This document shows positions 97-52,746 of a stretch of DNA of 64,000 nt, in pieces. The position numbers and the translations under genes are program-made. Numbering within the stretch: the first letter of the stretch is position 1; each line of letters begins with the position of its first letter. A model generated the notes under the pieces. It saw only the letters and a program-made list of their open reading frames with translations. It was not told the origin of the DNA and made no database searches. The DNA is from a virus. The stretch is taken from positions 33,386-97,385 of IMG/VR virus record IMGVR_UViG_3300034101_003081, one strand, 5' to 3'.

Positions 97-918
97 TTAG
101 CAAGACTCAAGACTCGGGAGGGAGACCCCGCACTGCTCGCAGAGTTTGGCGACCTCGGCGGCAAGTTCTGCCCTGGTGTGCGATCCAGCGCGGCGTGCCT
201 CGCTCGTCGTGACGCAGCCCTCGTCGACCTCCAGGGCCGCCGGGTAGCAGTGACTTGGCAGGAACCCGAACCGCTCTTGGTGCGACCAGCACAGCCGACG
301 CAGGCTCGCGTTGTGGCACAGGGCAAACGCGAGACGGTCGACGTCGACCGGCTGGTTCGCTGCCTTGACCAGCACCTCGACTTGGTGCTGGGCACGGCCG
401 CCAGACGTCCGCGACGTGGCCTTCGCGGCCCATAGTTCGACTCGCAGTCCCAGGCTTTCCAGAACGTCGACGGCGGCCAGGACAACGGCACCGCGAGCGA
501 AGATCGCCTCGGCCGTCACGCCCGCACTGACGCCCAGGTTGGCGTACAGCCGGACGACCCGCTGCGACCCGAACCGGCCGGTCTCGTACTCGTTGTAAGA
601 GCCGCAGGATTCCGGCTCGCCCGACAAGACGCGGCCGACGTCCACGAAGTCGCCGACGGCGTCCCAGGCGAACTGCTGGCAGGCGGCGACCTTCGAGGCC
701 TCCACGTACTGATCGAGACTAGCCCGAATCTCGGCGACGCGAGCCGCACCCTCGTGCCAGCCAGCGTGCGCCAACTCGACGGCCTGCTCGAACGTGCGAG
801 TGCCGAAGTGGCCTTCGCGGCCGACGTCGCGGCTGCTGATGCCCTTGACCTGCGGCACCTGGCGGACGTCCTCGACGAAGGCCTCGTACGAGTCAAAAGC
901 GTGGCGGATGTGGCTCAT
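97..918 (-). CDS. Putative AAA+ ATPase partner protein (vWA-like), paralog 1
   Basis: ATG at 918 with AGGAGA RBS. Shares GDFxDxGRVLSGEPE and RLAFxLxH.xxLRRL motifs with the two neighbouring genes. Co-oriented with a MoxR-type ATPase. Confidence 0.65.
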   Translation of the reverse strand: MSHIRHAFDSYEAFVEDVRQVPQVKGISSRDVGREGHFGTRTFEQAVELAHAGWHEGAARVAEIRASLDQYVEASKVAACQQFAWDAVGDFVDVGRVLSGEPESCGSYNEYETGRFGSQRVVRLYANLGVSAGVTAEAIFARGAVVLAAVDVLESLGLRVELWAAKATSRTSGGRAQHQVEVLVKAANQPVDVDRLAFALCHNASLRRLCWSHQERFGFLPSHCYPAALEVDEGCVTTSEARRAGSHTRAELAAEVAKLCEQCGVSLPSLESC

Positions 919-987
919 GTTCGATGTCTCCTGGGGATGTCGGATTATTGCCGACGTCCTGAATGAAGTCAAGCGGCCGGTTTGGCT

Positions 988-1827
988 CTATGACACAACA
1001 ATGGATTCCCGCTCTTCGGCCGAGAAAGACACGCCGCACGACTCGCAGACTTGCAAGACTCGGGCCGCCCTGGCCGCCGCCGTTGTGTCACTCTGTCTAA
1101 CCTCGGGCGTCGCGATCGCGCCCTCCTCGACGAGCAGCGGGCACGTCCCCGTGCAGTTGGGGCTGAATCCCAAGTCTTCCTCGACGCTGAAGAACAGCCG
1201 ACGCAGGCTGGCGTTGTGGGCCAAAAAGAACGCGATCCGGTCAGGCTCGAACGGCTGGCTGGCATCTTTGGCCTTGACCAGCACGGTCAACTTGTCGCCT
1301 CTGATGCGACTGTGCGAGCCAGAGCCGAGCCACAACTCGACACGGTGGCCGAGCGTCTCCAGCACGTCGACAGCCGCAAACACGGCGGCTCCAGCACTGA
1401 AAATGCTCTCCTTCTTGACGCCGGCAATCGCGGACAGGTTCGCAACTAACTTGATCACTCTCGTCGACGGCTGCGAGTCTTGCCCCTCGCGGAACGATCC
1501 GCAGCACTCAGGCTCGCCAGACAATACGCGGCCAATGTCGATGAAGTCGCCTGTAGTGTCCCACTCCAGTTTGCACGACTTGGCCGCGACAGCCTTGTCG
1601 ACGACGCTCTCCAACTCGGCGCGGAGTTTGGTCAGCCGCTCGGCGCCTGCGGGCCAGCCCTTCGTGGCGAGTTCGACAGCCTCGCCGAACGTCGCCGTGC
1701 CATGAAACCCAGCCTCGACGCCGCAGTGCGAGACCTTGGAGTTCTCGCCCTTGGTGTCGGCGGCGGCAATGAAGTCGCCGATGGTCTCGAACGTCACGAC
1801 CCGATGATCATCGTTCTTCTTCTTCAC
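988..1827 (-). CDS. Putative AAA+ ATPase partner protein (vWA-like), paralog 2
   Basis: 279 aa with AGGAGA RBS. Contains GDFIDIGRVLSGEPECCG and RIAFFLAHNASLRRL. Confidence 0.65.
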   Translation of the reverse strand: MKKKNDDHRVVTFETIGDFIAAADTKGENSKVSHCGVEAGFHGTATFGEAVELATKGWPAGAERLTKLRAELESVVDKAVAAKSCKLEWDTTGDFIDIGRVLSGEPECCGSFREGQDSQPSTRVIKLVANLSAIAGVKKESIFSAGAAVFAAVDVLETLGHRVELWLGSGSHSRIRGDKLTVLVKAKDASQPFEPDRIAFFLAHNASLRRLFFSVEEDLGFSPNCTGTCPLLVEEGAIATPEVRQSDTTAAARAARVLQVCESCGVSFSAEERESIVVS

Positions 1828-1853
1828 GGTCTAGTCTCCTTGTCTTGGATTGC

Positions 1854-2684
1854 TCAGGCCTTGACCAGTTCTGCGATCTGCTCTTCGTCGAACGTGAGGC
1901 CGCACTTCTCGGCGATCTTGATCACGTTCTCTTTCAGGCTCTTCGCCGACAGGTTGACCGCCGACAGAATCTCGTCGATCTCGACCGTGCCCTGACGCTT
2001 GCCGTAATCGGCGACCGACGCTGGGTGGCAGTTCGACGGGCAGTGCCCGTACAACTCCATCCAGCGAAAACCGAACCGCCGGAAGAACGACGGGTGTGCG
2101 ACGGTGAACGCGAGGCGGTCAGGGTCGACGATCTCGCCAGGCCGCTTGGCGACGACGTTCGCCGTGAGGTGAAGGCCGTGACCGCTCGTCGCCGTCGAGC
2201 AGATGACTTCGCAGCGAATGCCGCACGACTCAAGCAAGTCGACCGCCACCAGCACGGCCACGCCGCGGGCCGCGATCGCGTCGGCGCTGACGGCCCCGCT
2301 CACGCACTGATTGAGCCGTATCGACACGACCTTGGACGACACCGTCTCGCCGTTCTCAAACTCCTGGCCGCAGCACTCAGGCTCGCCCGACAGGACACGG
2401 CCAACGTCGATGAAGTCGCCAGTGACGTCCCAGCCGAACGTCCGAGACTTGGCAGTCTTGGCGGCGGAAATAAACGCCGAGAGTCCATCGCGGTGCTTGT
2501 TCACGCGGGCGACGCCGTCTGCCCAGCCCCTCGCGAACAACTCGCCAGCCTCGGCGTAGGTGTCCGTCCAGAAAAACTCCTTCCGGCCTGTGGCCTGGCT
2601 GTTCTGGCTCACGCCCTTGTCGTCGCGGGCGAGGTCTGCCAGGTAGTCGCTCACGGTCTCGTAGTCTTTGACGATCGTCTTCAC
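1854..2684 (-). CDS. Putative AAA+ ATPase partner protein (vWA-like), paralog 3
   Basis: GTG at 2684 with AGGAGA RBS. Contains GDFIDVGRVLSGEPECCG and RLAFTVAHPSFFRRF. Confidence 0.65.
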   Translation of the reverse strand: MKTIVKDYETVSDYLADLARDDKGVSQNSQATGRKEFFWTDTYAEAGELFARGWADGVARVNKHRDGLSAFISAAKTAKSRTFGWDVTGDFIDVGRVLSGEPECCGQEFENGETVSSKVVSIRLNQCVSGAVSADAIAARGVAVLVAVDLLESCGIRCEVICSTATSGHGLHLTANVVAKRPGEIVDPDRLAFTVAHPSFFRRFGFRWMELYGHCPSNCHPASVADYGKRQGTVEIDEILSAVNLSAKSLKENVIKIAEKCGLTFDEEQIAELVKA

Positions 2685-2773
2685 TGGGATGGTTCTCCTG
2701 GGCGTTGGCTTGTGTCCCCGCTCCCCGGCCGGCAAGCCCATAGCCAGCCGGGGAGCGTATCCAGACAACTCGA

Positions 2774-4039
2774 CTAGAGGTTCGCCTCGATCTTGCTGCG
2801 GGTGTCCTTGTCGAGCCCCTTCCAGACGCAGGCGTCGAGAGTGGCATCGACGGGCCAGCCAGCCCGAAGCAGGGCGACGCCGTTGATGTTCGCACGCGGC
2901 GAGACGATCACCCGCACGCCCTTGCCGAGCGAGGCAATGGCATTACGGACGGCGACGACCTTCTTCACGTACTCGGCGACCCGCTCCTCGGCGACGGCCT
3001 TCTCGACGTCGGTCTTCACCGAATGCACCTTGATCCCCTTGGCCTGCGGGGCCTCGGCGAACAACTCCAGGGACAGGCCGCAGGCCGCCGCCTCGATCCG
3101 GGGATCGTACTGCCAGTCGACCAGCACGAACCGATCGAGCGTCGCCGCGTCGATCTGCTGCCGTCCCACGTACTGCCGATCGGCACCCTGCCCGATCGTG
3201 TTGGCACCGGCGATCAGCACGAAGTCGGCATGCTTCGCGACGACGGCGTCGGGGAACGAGGCGTGCCCGTTGGCGAGCAACTGATTGATCACGACCAGCA
3301 CGGCCGGATTGGCCGCGTCGACCTCGTCGAGCAGGAACACGCCACCATGCTCGTAGGCGTCGCGGAGTTGCGTCCGCACCACCTTGCCGTTGGCGTCGTG
3401 GTAGCCGAGCAGGCTCGACTCGGACGTCTGCGGGCCGACCGACTTGGCGTAGAACGGCAGGCCGAGCGAGTCCGCGACGGCATGCGCCGACGACGTCTTG
3501 CCAGAGCCGGCAGGCCCGACGAGCCAGCAATTCCTGCGGGCAGCAACGGCGGCGAGCAAGGCCTCAAACTGGACGTGCTGGACGCCCACGTCGTTGGCGA
3601 CGCCCTCGACGGTCACGACCTCGATCCGCTGCGGCACCAGGGCCGCGATCCGCTGATCGACGATCGCCGTGACCTCGTCGATATCGACGCCGCCCTTGCC
3701 GCCCTCGGAGGTCACGAGCCCGGTGTCGCGGACGGCCTCGGCGATGATCTCGGCGAGGGAACGATTGCCGCGACCGCCGTCGATCTCCGAGTCAGACTCG
3801 ACCTCGCCGTTACCGTGTCCAGACTTCTCGGCACCGCTCGCCCACAGGCTCAGGCCCCGGCTCGTCTTGACGACCTGCTCGCCGTTGGGTCCGACGAGAT
3901 GGAAGAGACGGGACTGGCGACCCTTCTCGGTCTCGCGGGTCTCGACCCGCTCGATCGTGAACTCCCTGCCGTCCGCGACGGTGATGACGGCGCCGACCTT
4001 GTACGACTGCCACGAGTTGTTGATGACGTTGTTGTTCAC
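2774..4039 (-). CDS. MoxR/CbbQ-like AAA+ ATPase
   Basis: Walker A GPAGSGKT, Walker B FLLDEVD, sensor GANT, arginine finger DAATLDRF, sensor-2 VSPRA. GTG start at 4039 with AGGAGA RBS. Confidence 0.9.
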   Translation of the reverse strand: MNNNVINNSWQSYKVGAVITVADGREFTIERVETRETEKGRQSRLFHLVGPNGEQVVKTSRGLSLWASGAEKSGHGNGEVESDSEIDGGRGNRSLAEIIAEAVRDTGLVTSEGGKGGVDIDEVTAIVDQRIAALVPQRIEVVTVEGVANDVGVQHVQFEALLAAVAARRNCWLVGPAGSGKTSSAHAVADSLGLPFYAKSVGPQTSESSLLGYHDANGKVVRTQLRDAYEHGGVFLLDEVDAANPAVLVVINQLLANGHASFPDAVVAKHADFVLIAGANTIGQGADRQYVGRQQIDAATLDRFVLVDWQYDPRIEAAACGLSLELFAEAPQAKGIKVHSVKTDVEKAVAEERVAEYVKKVVAVRNAIASLGKGVRVIVSPRANINGVALLRAGWPVDATLDACVWKGLDKDTRSKIEANL

Positions 4040-4109
4040 TGGGCTTCTCCTTTTGAAAACCAAATCGACCGGGCTGTGTGATCGAGTGACGTCCACTCGT
4101 CATGCGACA

Positions 4110-4188: not shown

Positions 4189-4413
4189 CTAAAACGAGGT
4201 TTTTCGGCCGGAGGGCTGTTCCGCCAGCCTGGCGGACAGGTGGGCGACGGCCTCGGATTCGGCGTGGTGCTGGGCGTACCAGGCCACCGCAGGCAGGAGC
4301 CATTCGACGTCGATCGGCCTGCCATTCGATGCCGCGACTGCGGCATCGAAGACCCGCAGATAGAGGTCTCGCTGTGGAGACGTCAGAAACTCCAGCACGT
4401 CGCAGTCACGCAT
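4189..4413 (-). CDS. Hypothetical protein
   Basis: 74 aa ORF with GGAGG RBS, downstream of the TROVE gene. Confidence 0.5.
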   Translation of the reverse strand: MRDCDVLEFLTSPQRDLYLRVFDAAVAASNGRPIDVEWLLPAVAWYAQHHAESEAVAHLSARLAEQPSGRKTSF

Positions 4414-4483
4414 GGCCAGTCCCTCCGCGACGAGAGTAGCGTGTCCAAACTACTCTCGCCGTGCGGGATCATACGTCGCGTGC

Positions 4484-5797
4484 TTAGGCCTGTGCAAGAG
4501 CCTCGCACTCGACGATGTAGCGAATCACGTTTTCAGCGAAGCCGTCAACGTGAGTCCAACCGTCGTGATAGCCGACGCCATGCTGATACGGCGCGACGTT
4601 GATCATGTACGCCGCATCTGCCTTCGGGCGCACAACACGGTCATGCGATTGTTCGTCCGTGACCACGATCAGGCGATCGTGGTCGAACTTCTCGACAGCC
4701 CGAATCGCTTCGCCGAGCAGCGTCCCGCCTCGCGGCTGCGAGAGTTGCACGGCCTCGACGCCAGACAGGCCACGACGAGGAGGCACCTCGACCACTCTGT
4801 CGGAGAATGAAAAGACACGAAGGTCGTCGCAGTTGAGTATTGCCGCGAGCGACGCCGCTGCGTCAAGTCTCGTCAAGTCTGCGCGGCTCGACAGAGGCAC
4901 GTCCATCGAGCCCGAGACGTCGACCAGCACGATCGTCTTGCCTGAGAGCCTCGGCAGTTCGTGGATCGACGCGAGCATCGCGATGTCGAGCGTCGGCTCC
5001 AGCGACGGCGCGGCCTTGGCCGCAGCGACGAAACGAAACGGAAGCACTCGCTCGGCGCCGAGCCTGCCCAAGATCGCGTTCTTGATCAGCGACGTCTCGA
5101 CGCCAGCCTCGACCATGTTCCGTAGGTTGCGGAGCAGGGCGAGGTAGCCGATCTTCTGCTCGCGGATCAGTCGCTCGAACGTGGACTTCTTGTCAGCGCC
5201 GCCTGAGAGCGAGACTTCCCACGTATCGGGAGCAACGAGCGTTCCCTCGACGAGCGATCGCCACAGGCTTGCCTGCTCAGGTGTGTCGGGCTTGGCATGG
5301 CACAGAAATAAGACGTCGCGAAGTTTGATAGCCGACGGCTTGTTGTACTTGGCAAGTTGGTAGGCGTTGAACTTCTTGAACGCCGCCGCGAGGCCTTTCT
5401 TCATCGGGTTCGAGAGCGGCTTCTTGCCGTCGGCCCAGTAGATGGCGACGAGTTCTGCGAGTTCGTCCGCTCGCTGGATCGTGTCGACGATCGCCTGCGA
5501 GACGAGTTTGCCGGAGCCGTGCTTGATCAGCCCCTTGAGCAGGAGCAGCGGAACGTGCCGCAAATGAAACTTTGAGCGAGCCTCGACGGCGAGAGATGCG
5601 ATCTCGTCGGGCGTGACCTTCTCGCACAACGAGAGAATGCGATCCGCAACATCGACGCCATCCTCGTAGTGCGTCGACTCCCACAGCAGGCACGTCAGGA
5701 CGGTGCGTCGCAGTTCCTGGCTGGGCGTGATCCGCACAGCCGGAGCGCCCTCGTGCGTGACTGCGGCATTCGAGGCGGGAGCGGTGTTGAGTCGCAC
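4484..5797 (-). CDS. rsr: TROVE-domain RNA-binding protein (Ro60/Rsr homolog) with C-terminal vWA domain
   Basis: Motifs CLLWE..YEDG, FNAYQLAKY, LRDVLFLCHAKP, TWEVSLS, YLALLRNLRNM, LPFRF, MIDAS DVSGSM and TDEQ. GTG start at 5797 with AGGAG RBS. Confidence 0.9.
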   Translation of the reverse strand: MRLNTAPASNAAVTHEGAPAVRITPSQELRRTVLTCLLWESTHYEDGVDVADRILSLCEKVTPDEIASLAVEARSKFHLRHVPLLLLKGLIKHGSGKLVSQAIVDTIQRADELAELVAIYWADGKKPLSNPMKKGLAAAFKKFNAYQLAKYNKPSAIKLRDVLFLCHAKPDTPEQASLWRSLVEGTLVAPDTWEVSLSGGADKKSTFERLIREQKIGYLALLRNLRNMVEAGVETSLIKNAILGRLGAERVLPFRFVAAAKAAPSLEPTLDIAMLASIHELPRLSGKTIVLVDVSGSMDVPLSSRADLTRLDAAASLAAILNCDDLRVFSFSDRVVEVPPRRGLSGVEAVQLSQPRGGTLLGEAIRAVEKFDHDRLIVVTDEQSHDRVVRPKADAAYMINVAPYQHGVGYHDGWTHVDGFAENVIRYIVECEALAQA

Positions 5798-5828
5798 GGC
5801 TGGGCTCCTGGCTGATGAGGAAGAGAAA

Positions 5829-5903
5829 TGCTGGCGAGAACAGCGAGGCCGGGGGATCAAACAGCCTTAGTGTGAAGTAACCGGACTCTGCACTACGCCA
5901 GCA
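5829..5903 (-). ncRNA. Y-RNA-like stem-loop RNA, copy 1
   Basis: Ends pair (UGCUGGCG/CGCCAGCA). Shares GUAGUGCAG, UACUUC and UGUUCUC with copy 2. Directly upstream of rsr. Confidence 0.7.
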
Positions 5904-5913
5904 AGGCGACAAG

Positions 5914-5984
5914 AGCCGCGAGAACAAACGGACACGGCGTGGTTTCTATCGCAAAGAAGTAGCCGTGGCCTGCACTACGCGGCC
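5914..5984 (-). ncRNA. Y-RNA-like stem-loop RNA, copy 2
   Basis: GCCGCG/CGCGGC closing stem and CACGGC/GCCGUG upper stem, with the same conserved motifs as copy 1. Starts at the predicted +1 of the adjacent promoter. Confidence 0.7.
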
Positions 5985-5991
5985 GAGAGGC

Positions 5992-6019
5992 AGTGTACGG
6001 ATACGCACACTGCGTGCAA
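5992..6019 (-). promoter_or_regulatory. Promoter for the Y-RNA-like pair and rsr
   Basis: TTGCAC, 16 nt spacer, TACACT. Predicted +1 at about 5984. Confidence 0.6.
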
Positions 6020-6027
6020 GAAAGTTT

Positions 6028-6402
6028 TCAGCCCACGCCGGCGGGCAGAGGCTGCCAGTGCGTGGGCTGCGGCTTGAACGTCGCGAGCGAATCAGTCCTG
6101 ACGAACACGCCGTCCTCGCCGCAGCAGCCGACTGAGACGGCGTCTTTGACGCAGACTAGCACGGGTTCGTCGACGTCAGGGAGCCGAGACTTGGCCGCGA
6201 CCCACGGAGACTTGGACTTCTTTGGCTTTCGCTTCGGCGAATCGGACTCGACGAGCGTCATGCTCAGTTCAAGCCGCGACGTGCCTGAGTATTCCTGAGT
6301 CACGGATACGCCCGTGATCCACCCCGTGACGTTGTTGGGCAACGCCCCGCCGTACTGAGACGCGACATAGTCGAGGATCGCGGACGAGAGTTCTTCGTTC
6401 AT
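6028..6402 (-). CDS. DUF551-like phage protein
   Basis: W......RLP...PTHWQPLP signature. Confidence 0.6.
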   Translation of the reverse strand: MNEELSSAILDYVASQYGGALPNNVTGWITGVSVTQEYSGTSRLELSMTLVESDSPKRKPKKSKSPWVAAKSRLPDVDEPVLVCVKDAVSVGCCGEDGVFVRTDSLATFKPQPTHWQPLPAGVG

Positions 6403-52588: not shown

Positions 52589-52746
52589 AGTGCTGTCCCT
52601 CCTTGGACGGCACTGATTTTACGACTCTTCTTGAGGTCACCCGAAGTTCTCGATCTTCTGCCAGCCAAAAACGCACGCCCGAGGAATCGAACCTCGCCAG
52701 TCAGATTTGGAGTCCAACTCGCCAGCCTTGGAACATTGGCGTGCAG

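What the first reader, a model, noticed from the sequence alone, without database searches (positions are those of the whole stretch)
4484..6019. Phage Ro60/TROVE gene with two minimal Y-RNA-like hairpins on its own promoter
Seen in sequence: two 71-75 nt elements (5829-5903 and 5914-5984) fold the same way although their stems differ (UGCUGGCG/CGCCAGCA versus GCCGCG/CGCGGC; CCGG/CCGG versus CACGGC/GCCGUG). The motifs GUAGUGCAG, UACUUC and UGUUCUC are shared. A TTGCAC-16-TACACT promoter places +1 at the first base of the upstream copy. Established: bacterial Rsr genes lie next to Y RNAs, many with tRNA-like domains, and are often near RtcB. Inference: these are stripped-down Y RNAs that keep a Ro-binding stem but have only a short variable loop, possibly acting as decoys or tethers against RNA-cleaving defences.
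Basis: partly seen in the sequence, partly recalled or inferred. Interest (0 to 1): 0.75.

Follow-up and report, generated by a model that had tools for sequence, protein, structure and literature searches.

The report
Two handle-only Y RNAs beside phage Ro60
An uncultured 97-kb phage carries a gene for the ring-shaped RNA-binding protein Ro60, preceded by two small hairpin RNA genes from a large, covarying family of Ro60-partner (Y-type) RNAs; it is a stripped-down example of a known kind of system, not a new one.

Summary
Two hairpins lie on the minus strand (A 5914-5984, B 5829-5903) between a conserved promoter-like site and a TROVE+vWA (Ro60-like) gene (4484-5797). Their stems differ but their boxes are shared.

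A covariance model built only from 25 similar elements of other phages finds exactly these two sites in the 64-kb window (48.7 and 37.0 bits). A motif-only scan of IMG/VR returned 49 loci. The model confirms 37 of them, and 32 of those have a TROVE gene on the same strand. In the seed alignment 92.7% of cells pair, against 69.8% in shuffles.

In related phages the same "handle" also encloses tRNA-like inserts that give sub-threshold Rfam YrlA hits. This phage has only the insert-free form: no YrlA hit at E<=10 in the 99%-complete genome, and no RtcB.

The protein's best solved relative is Thermus phage phiLo Ro60 (E 6e-30), which binds small hairpin Y-like RNAs in vitro. Binding, discrete transcripts and function are untested here.

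Verdict: a new member of a known kind. The handle family itself is not in Rfam or in the papers I could search. The scan has already reported this family on other DNA.

The parts
6029..6069 (-). Terminator-like GC-rich hairpin over the last codons and stop of the upstream DUF551 gene, followed by GAAAACUUUCUU
   Evidence: Fold at -28.4 kcal/mol, z -2.78; DUF551 match in Pfam
5992..6019 (-). Promoter-like site: TTGCAC (6019-6014), 16-nt spacer, TACACT (5997-5992); +1 inferred at about 5985/5984
   Evidence: Sequence; hexamers conserved while the spacer varies in L011, L002 and L001; single occurrence in the window, 0.03 expected; not called by the sigma-70 scan
5914..5984 (-). Y-like RNA A, handle only: closing stem, U bulge, AG:CU, UU bulge, U.G/G.U, internal loop, inner stem CACGGC/GCCGUG, loop starting CUACUUC
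   Evidence: Fold; R2 hit 5912-5985, 48.7 bits, E 6.6e-14; alignment to the model; C-G to U-A and U.G changes in the closing stem of orthologues
5829..5903 (-). Y-like RNA B, same build with different stems (UGCUGGCG/CGCCAGCA; CCGG/CCGG), loop starting UUACUUC
   Evidence: Fold; R2 hit 5828-5903, 37.0 bits, E 6.4e-10; in orthologues one helix position reads U/C, G.U, G-C and U.G
5805..5828 (-). Pyrimidine-rich spacer (UUUCUCUUCCUC...) and AGGAG ribosome-binding site (5809-5805). It is unstructured; relatives have a run of six U here
   Evidence: z +0.43, no structure
4484..5797 (-). Ro60-like gene (TROVE + vWA with DVSGS MIDAS motif), 437 aa, protein P0001
   Evidence: Pfam TROVE E 2.2e-14; PHROG 850 'RNA-binding protein' E 8.8e-50 over residues 7-433; phiLo Ro60 PDB 9KOP/9L5Y E 6e-30 over residues 12-431
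4428..4461 (-). 13-bp hairpin after the Ro60 stop codon, without a U tract; possible end of the unit
   Evidence: Fold at -28.8 kcal/mol, z -2.25

Best explanation
The two hairpins are genes for small Y-type RNAs, the RNA partners of the Ro60-like protein encoded just downstream. They are the insert-free, 'handle-only' form of a large phage RNA family. Inferred: one promoter at 6019-5992 starts transcription about 5985 and the transcript runs through A, B and the Ro60 mRNA. No strong terminator follows B, only a pyrimidine tract, and in Mycobacterium smegmatis YrlA and YrlB upstream of rsr are cut from one precursor (PMC4201824). Shown by comparison: each RNA folds into a closing stem, a bulged U, two pairs (AG:CU here, GG:CC in most relatives), a UU bulge, two more pairs, a small internal loop, an 8-pair variable stem and a loop that opens with YUACUUC. 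Inferred: the Ro60 ring binds this bulged helix through a basic patch. Speculative: with no tRNA-like effector domain, the RNAs act as gates or regulators of the ring, or as scaffolds towards a host exonuclease such as PNPase, rather than as tRNA mimics.
For: 1. Model R2, built from 25 elements of other phages with no sequence of this lineage, hits only 5912-5985 (48.7 bits) and 5828-5903 (37.0 bits), both on the Ro60 strand, in the 64-kb window. Model R1, built from the B orthologues, finds only these two sites in the whole 97-kb genome.
2. The MAFFT seed alignment covaries: 92.7% of cells pair against 69.8% in shuffles; covariation score 0.608 against 0.164 (0 of 500 shuffles reach it) and at most 0.173 when partners are slid. 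On 114 model-aligned elements 95.3% pair. The core pair reads GC 100, AU 13, with no one-sided change.
3. A motif-only scan of IMG/VR gave 49 loci. R2 confirms 37 of them, and 32 of those hold a TROVE homologue, always on the same strand. None of the 12 unconfirmed loci does. Only 97 of 50,697 phage records have such a gene.
4. In Xanthomonas, Brevundimonas and Caulobacter phages the same handle encloses tRNA-like inserts that are sub-threshold Rfam YrlA hits of 30-56 bits.
5. Both hairpins are kept in three diverged relatives (86-93% protein identity) with compensatory stem changes.
6. The protein aligns over its full length with phiLo Ro60. That protein binds small stem-bulge-stem RNAs, with Kd about 17 nM for a minimal mimic (PMC12135203). 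K133, K134, R160 and K169 align with its RNA-contact residues K141, K142, R169 and R178 (my mapping).
Against: There is no transcript or binding evidence. Rfam Y_RNA and YrlA give nothing at E<=10. The CGAA / GNCGAAN0-1G box used to recognise Y RNAs is absent from both copies, which have UGCA at that place. Four of the eight basic residues tested in phiLo Ro60 are not kept (S129, S155, F164, E184). No clear terminator separates B from the mRNA, so the hairpins could stay part of the 5' leader. phmmer links the protein to phiLo Ro60 but not to Xenopus or Deinococcus Ro60 at E<=0.01. R2 does not detect anything in phiLo's upstream non-coding region, where the paper places the experimentally tested Yrl1 and Yrl2, so the in-vitro binding data come from a different RNA sequence family.
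Confidence: 0.8

Rival explanations
1. The hairpins act only in cis, as protein-binding sites in the 5' leader of the Ro60 mRNA that let the protein control its own translation or mRNA stability. They are not released as separate RNAs.
For: B ends 32 nt before the start codon and no strong terminator lies between. The unit appears to have a single promoter.
Against: In L045, L070 and L073, and in phiLo and crAss001, elements of the same family lie downstream of the Ro60 gene. Neither hairpin covers the ribosome-binding site, and that stretch is unstructured. Arrays of up to six R2-scored elements span several hundred bases upstream in relatives. Long family members carry tRNA-like domains typical of free Y RNAs. 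The two roles are not mutually exclusive.
Confidence: 0.12
2. They are decayed remnants of longer tRNA-like Y RNAs that lost their insert and no longer function.
For: Relatives carry longer elements with tRNA-like domains. The window copies lack the CGAA box.
Against: Both copies are conserved with compensatory changes across four lineages. In the loci held here, several other phages have only elements without a T-loop motif, for example L047, L058, L060 and L063. The altered core pair is changed on both sides (AG:CU), not broken.
Confidence: 0.05
3. They are generic terminators, attenuators or intergenic repeat elements unrelated to Ro60.
For: GC-rich stems are followed by pyrimidine tracts.
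Against: They occur nowhere else in the 97-kb genome. Their conserved boxes go with TROVE genes in unrelated phages of 26-67% G+C. The terminator scan does not call them.
Confidence: 0.03

Closest known systems
Thermus phage phiLo Ro60 with Yrl1 and Yrl2 (Hu et al., NAR 2025, PMC12135203; PDB 9KOP, 9L5Y)
   Same: A phage Ro60 gene with two small Y-like RNAs reported upstream of it. The protein is the best solved relative of the window's protein (E 6e-30, full length). A minimal stem-bulge-stem RNA is enough for binding. The box sits at nt 10-13 of Yrl2, against about nt 9-12 of the family consensus counted from the closing stem, and about nt 12-14 in the window's copies, whose closing stems are longer.
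   Different: Yrl1 and Yrl2 were picked by their CGAA motifs. R2 finds nothing in phiLo's upstream non-coding region at E<=10, but finds one family-type element 12 nt downstream of the phiLo gene. The window copies have UGCA in place of CGAA. Protein identity is low.
Bacterial and actinophage Rsr with YrlA/YrlB (Chen et al. 2014, PMC4201824; Rfam RF02553)
   Same: RNAs are encoded next to the Ro60 gene on the same strand. The ends pair into a stem with a conserved 5' box followed by a YUAY-type motif. Small partners without a full tRNA-like domain (YrlB) exist. The RNAs can be co-transcribed with rsr. Long members of the present family give YrlA hits of 30-56 bits.
   Different: The window has no tRNA-like domain and no Rfam hit. 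R2 does not score the YrlA-like elements of Gordonia phage Neville or Streptomyces phage Satis. This phage has no RtcB.
Deinococcus radiodurans Rsr-Yrn1-PNPase (RYPER) and metazoan Ro60-Y RNA particles
   Same: Same logic: a ring protein bound to a bulged terminal helix of a small RNA, whose other end decides what the particle does (established knowledge; PMC4201824 introduction).
   Different: No detectable sequence relation of the RNAs. The effector end is reduced here to a short loop. The partner nuclease is unknown.

Membership tests
Y RNA in the broad sense (Ro60-partner small RNA) | Encoded beside a Ro60/TROVE gene, on the same strand | tested here: met
   Both hairpins lie 32-187 nt upstream of the TROVE gene on the minus strand. 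The family motif is on the same strand as the TROVE gene in all 32 IMG/VR loci that hold one.
Y RNA in the broad sense (Ro60-partner small RNA) | 5' and 3' ends pair into a stem holding a conserved bulged helix | tested here: met
   Folds; covariation in the family; the window copies fit the model with a compensatory core pair.
Y RNA in the broad sense (Ro60-partner small RNA) | Discrete stable transcript bound by Ro60 | not testable with these tools
   Needs RNA-seq or Northern blots and a pull-down or gel shift.
YrlA (Rfam RF02553) | Match to the Rfam covariance model | tested here: not met
   No hit at gathering score in the window, none at E<=10 in 5500-6300, none at E<=10 in the whole genome.
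YrlA (Rfam RF02553) | tRNA-like domain (T arm, D arm, acceptor-like stem-loop) | tested here: not met
   The loops are 28-31 nt with no T-loop motif. ARAGORN finds only tRNA-Trp at 52672-52744.
YrlA (Rfam RF02553) | GNCGAAN0-1G box near the 5' end | tested here: not met
   The window copies read AGUGCAG at the homologous place. The family consensus is GGCGUAG and L001 copy A reads AGCGAAG.
Phage TROVE-linked handle RNA family (model R2, defined here) | Significant hit to a model built without this lineage; YUACUUC loop start; core pairs kept | tested here: met
   48.7 and 37.0 bits, the only hits in the window; alignment; the A:U version of the core pair is seen in 13 of 114 elements.
phiLo Yrl1/Yrl2 | Same RNA sequence family as the experimentally bound RNAs | tested here: not met
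   R2 gives no hit at E<=10 in phiLo's upstream non-coding region, where the paper places Yrl1 and Yrl2. Its only hit lies downstream of the gene at L085 3073-3141 (23.7 bits).
Ro60 / Rsr protein | TROVE domain | tested here: met
   PF05731, 53.9 bits against a cut-off of 23; PHROG 850, E 8.8e-50.
Ro60 / Rsr protein | C-terminal vWA domain with a MIDAS site | tested here: inconclusive
   VWA_2 scores 22.6 bits, below its cut-off of 27. DVSGS, GGT and TDEQ motifs are present and align with the phiLo Ro60 vWA domain.
Ro60 / Rsr protein | Closed HEAT-repeat ring | not tested
   Inferred only from full-length homology to phiLo Ro60, whose crystal structure is a ring (PMC12135203). No model was built.

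The most novel reading that the evidence does not exclude
The handle (GUGGCGUAG ... YUACUUC ... UUGUUCCC) defines a widespread phage Y-RNA family that is not in Rfam and not in the papers I could search. Interchangeable inserts, from none to a full tRNA mimic, plug into this one Ro60-docking stem. This lineage has co-evolved a private handle variant (AG:CU core pair, UGCA box) with its own Ro60, giving a particle that does not cross-react with other Ro60 systems. It works through the handle alone, for example on host PNPase.
Probability: 0.2. Interest if true: 0.55.

Novelty: new member of a known kind. Interest (0 to 1): 0.33.

Why it matters
Ro60/Y-RNA particles are known from animals, bacteria and some phages, but what phage versions do is open. 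This locus is the minimal layout: one promoter-like site, two docking-stem-only RNAs and one Ro60 gene, with no tRNA-like RNA and no RtcB in a near-complete genome. That makes it a convenient system for asking what the docking stem alone does. Chen et al. [quoted passage not shown] The family model also flags a candidate partner RNA in phiLo, 12 nt downstream of its Ro60 gene, whereas the published study describes Yrl1 and Yrl2 as upstream. For the scan, this is a repeat sighting of a family already reported on other DNA.

Tried and rejected
1. Rfam at gathering and at E<=10 gave no Y_RNA or YrlA match. The weak hits nearby (TB8Cs3H1, scr4677, isrG) lie outside the hairpins.
2. I first read the window's GCGUAG as the family's GGCGUAG with a UGCAG insertion. 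The model alignment shows no insertion: GUAGUGCAG equals GUGGCGUAG position for position.
3. A MAFFT alignment of copies A and B together put the stems out of register and gave a poor consensus fold. I used separate orthologue alignments and model-based alignment instead.
4. The 10-bp hairpin in the promoter spacer (about 6013-5990) is not kept in L001 or L002, while the hexamers are. I read it as a promoter, not an RNA element.
5. RtcB (PF01139) is absent from the genome.
6. The MoxR-type AAA+ module downstream sits next to TROVE only in this phage's own lineage (6 loci), not in the other TROVE loci (63 in all hit by TROVE). No functional link is supported.
7. R1 also scored the reverse strand of one B copy (28.1 bits), as expected for a near-symmetrical stem. 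R2 hits are strand-specific.
8. Twelve of the 49 IMG/VR pattern hits are chance matches: no R2 hit and no TROVE gene.
9. I did not run structure prediction or complex prediction. Full-length homology to a solved phage Ro60 seemed enough, and the complex tool does not take RNA.

Full report
**What is there**

The window is part of a 97,385-base virus record estimated 99% complete. On the minus strand a 437-aa gene (4484-5797) encodes a TROVE protein with a C-terminal vWA-like part:
- Pfam TROVE scores 53.9 bits, E 2.2e-14. VWA_2 scores 22.6 bits, below its cut-off.
- PHROG 850 'RNA-binding protein' matches residues 7-433 at E 8.8e-50.
- The MIDAS-type motif DVSGS is present.
- The start is GTG 5797, 7 nt after AGGAG. 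The longer TTG frame from 5860 would overlap hairpin B. Relatives align from residue 1 of the GTG version.

The 230-nt gap up to the preceding DUF551 gene holds, in order:
- a strong hairpin over that gene's stop codon;
- TTGCAC-16-TACACT at 6019-5992;
- hairpin A (5984-5914), a 10-nt spacer, then hairpin B (5903-5829);
- a pyrimidine-rich unstructured stretch and the ribosome-binding site.

**Checking the observation**

The plus-strand versions fold less well (z about -2.1). The composite motif occurs twice in the window, with none expected.

Three diverged relatives (L001, with L010 the same sequence in this region; L002; L011; 86-93% protein identity) keep both hairpins. Their changes preserve pairing:
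- The second pair of A's closing stem reads C-G, U-A, U-A and U.G.
- One position inside B's helix reads U/C, G.U, G-C and U.G.
- The promoter hexamers are kept while the spacer and the stretch after the -10 box change.

The promoter reading is plausible but unproven. By my count it matches the sigma-70 consensus at 7 of 12 positions, and the scanner did not call it.

**What the hairpins are**

Rfam gives nothing for them. The answer came from relatives of the protein.

*Arrays in cultured phages.* TROVE homologues occur in 97 of 50,697 phage records. In Xanthomonas phage 10KY502B (59% identity), the Brevundimonas phages Gurke and Marchewka, and Caulobacter phage CcrColossus, the gene is preceded by a long non-coding stretch. 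That stretch is filled with tandem elements that all begin GGUGG(C/U)GUAG, then a variable stem, then (A/U)UACUUC, and end with UGUUCCC or a variant such as UGAUCCC. Some carry a tRNA-like insert and give sub-threshold Rfam YrlA hits of 25-56 bits. Others are short hairpins built like the window's.

*Association with TROVE.* A motif-only scan of IMG/VR returned 49 loci. By tblastn, 32 contain a TROVE homologue, always on the same strand and usually directly downstream.

*Covariation.* I aligned 25 short elements from that scan by sequence only, using none from the window's lineage. The alignment supports this fold: closing stem, bulged U, GG:CC, UU bulge, C-G/G.U, small internal loop, 8-pair stem.
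- 92.7% of cells pair, against 69.8% in shuffles.
- The covariation score is 0.608, against 0.164 in shuffles (0 of 500 reach it) and at most 0.173 with slid partners.
- 11 of 17 pairs change on both sides.
- The boxes fixed by the search pattern are invariant by construction and say nothing. The stems were free to vary.

*Independent test.* Model R2, built from that alignment, finds exactly two hits at E<=10 in the 64-kb window: 5912-5985 (48.7 bits, E 6.6e-14) and 5828-5903 (37.0 bits, E 6.4e-10), both on the Ro60 strand. It confirms 35 of the 47 scan loci searched. With the two loci of the window's own lineage (L071, L078), that makes 37 of 49. All 12 unconfirmed loci lack a TROVE gene. Conversely, model R1, built from the B orthologues, finds only the two hairpins in the whole genome.

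*The local variant.* The model alignment corrected my first reading. The window's GUAGUGCAG is the family's GUGGCGUAG with no insertion.
- The first core pair has changed on both sides, G:C to A:U.
- The third has gone from C-G to U.G.
- Among 114 model-aligned elements that first pair reads GC 100 and AU 13, with no one-sided change (this alignment is fitted to the model, so it leans towards the structure).

*Handle-only status.* R2 also scores long elements of 104-153 nt in which the handle encloses a T-arm or a full tRNA-like domain. The window's RNAs are therefore the handle-only form of a modular family.
- In the loci held here, several other phages have only elements without a T-loop motif, for example L047, L058, L060 and L063.
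- Those loci are partial. Here the whole genome shows no YrlA-like match, and its single tRNA is tRNA-Trp.

**Relation to known systems**

*Bacterial YrlA/YrlB.* Chen et al. 2014 (PMC4201824) defined YrlA/YrlB next to rsr in over 250 bacteria and 22 phages. They described a 5' GNCGAAN0-1G box, a YUAY motif and a tRNA-like domain in at least one RNA per species, and noted smaller Rsr-bound RNAs that escaped computational detection.
- The family box GGCGUAG is one base off GNCGAAG. One orthologue (L001 copy A) reads AGCGAAG at the same place.
- The Rfam model instead aligned its box to the inner stem plus UUACUU. Which stretch corresponds to the published box is unresolved.
- R2 does not score the YrlA-like elements of two actinophages. 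The outer handle therefore belongs to this clade of phage Ro60 genes.

*Thermus phage phiLo.* The only solved structures matched at E<=0.01 are those of Thermus phage phiLo Ro60 (9KOP, 9L5Y; E 6e-30, residues 12-431).
- That study (PMC12135203) shows a ring of HEAT repeats plus vWA.
- It shows binding of two small RNAs reported upstream of the gene, about 17 nM affinity for a minimal stem-bulge-stem mimic, 3-4-fold losses on mutating CGAA, and formation of complexes with host PNPase that slow it.
- Using a +8 offset between chain and paper numbering (all eight residue types fit), the window protein keeps a basic residue at four of the eight tested positions: K133, K134, R160 and K169.
- The tested Yrl1 and Yrl2 are apparently not members of the R2 family. 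R2 finds nothing in phiLo's upstream non-coding region, but finds one element 12 nt after the gene's stop codon.

**Mechanism and rivals**

The best reading (0.8) is two trans-acting Ro60 partner RNAs, co-transcribed with the gene and processed out, binding through the bulged handle.

Their role without an effector domain is inferred only. They may gate or regulate the ring, or act as a scaffold towards a host exonuclease.

A purely cis, autoregulatory role (0.12) is weakened by several points:
- Arrays lie downstream of the gene in L045, L070 and L073, and single family-type elements do so in phiLo and crAss001.
- The ribosome-binding site is free.

Decay remnants (0.05) and generic terminators or repeats (0.03) do not fit the conservation, the compensatory changes or the exclusive link to TROVE genes.

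**Novelty**

This is a known kind of system in a stripped-down form.
- The handle family is not in Rfam, and I found no description of it in two targeted full-text searches beyond the two papers above.
- Earlier notes of this scan report the same family on other genomes. I reached the same reading independently and do not count those notes as evidence.

Noticed in passing
L085 3073-3141 (Thermus phage phiLo, MH673673.1): R2 finds a family-type handle element (23.7 bits, E 9e-7, with GGGUACUUC) 12 nt downstream of the phiLo Ro60 gene. It overlaps the annotated small CDS phiLo_25. It finds nothing in the upstream non-coding region, where the 2025 paper places Yrl1 and Yrl2. This may be a cognate RNA that the paper did not test.
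   Followed up: partly
L003 2198-2323 and 2329-2460 (IMGVR_UViG_3300005326_000051); also L088 4124-4267 (crAss001): These are tRNA-shaped genes with intact acceptor, D and T arms but a 65-66-nt insert where the anticodon loop should be. In L003 2198-2323 the insert reads 3' handle strand, loop, then 5' handle strand (GUAGCGUAG ... UUACUUC). That is a circularly permuted Y RNA with its ends at the acceptor stem.
   Followed up: partly
L045, L070, L073; L088 3946-4032: In these phages the handle-RNA array lies downstream, not upstream, of the TROVE gene. crAss001 has about 900 nt of non-coding DNA after gp96 that holds such elements.
   Followed up: no
window 97-4096: The MoxR-type AAA+ gene and its vWA-like partners lie directly downstream of the Ro60 gene. 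They accompany it only in this phage's own lineage, in 6 of the 63 TROVE loci held.
   Followed up: yes
window 4189-4413 (-): A 74-aa ORF between the Ro60 gene and the AAA+ gene has no Pfam or PHROG match. It is conserved at 78% in L012. A promoter-like site (TGCACA-17-TATGAT, 4496-4468) overlaps the Ro60 stop codon.
   Followed up: no
L006 1822-1889; L007 1766-1840; L009 1128-1195: The GenBank records of Xanthomonas phage 10KY502B, Brevundimonas phage Gurke and CcrColossus annotate 'tRNA' genes in these arrays. They overlap Y-RNA-like elements (YrlA-type or R2 hits) and are probably tRNA-like domains of Y RNAs, not tRNAs.
   Followed up: partly
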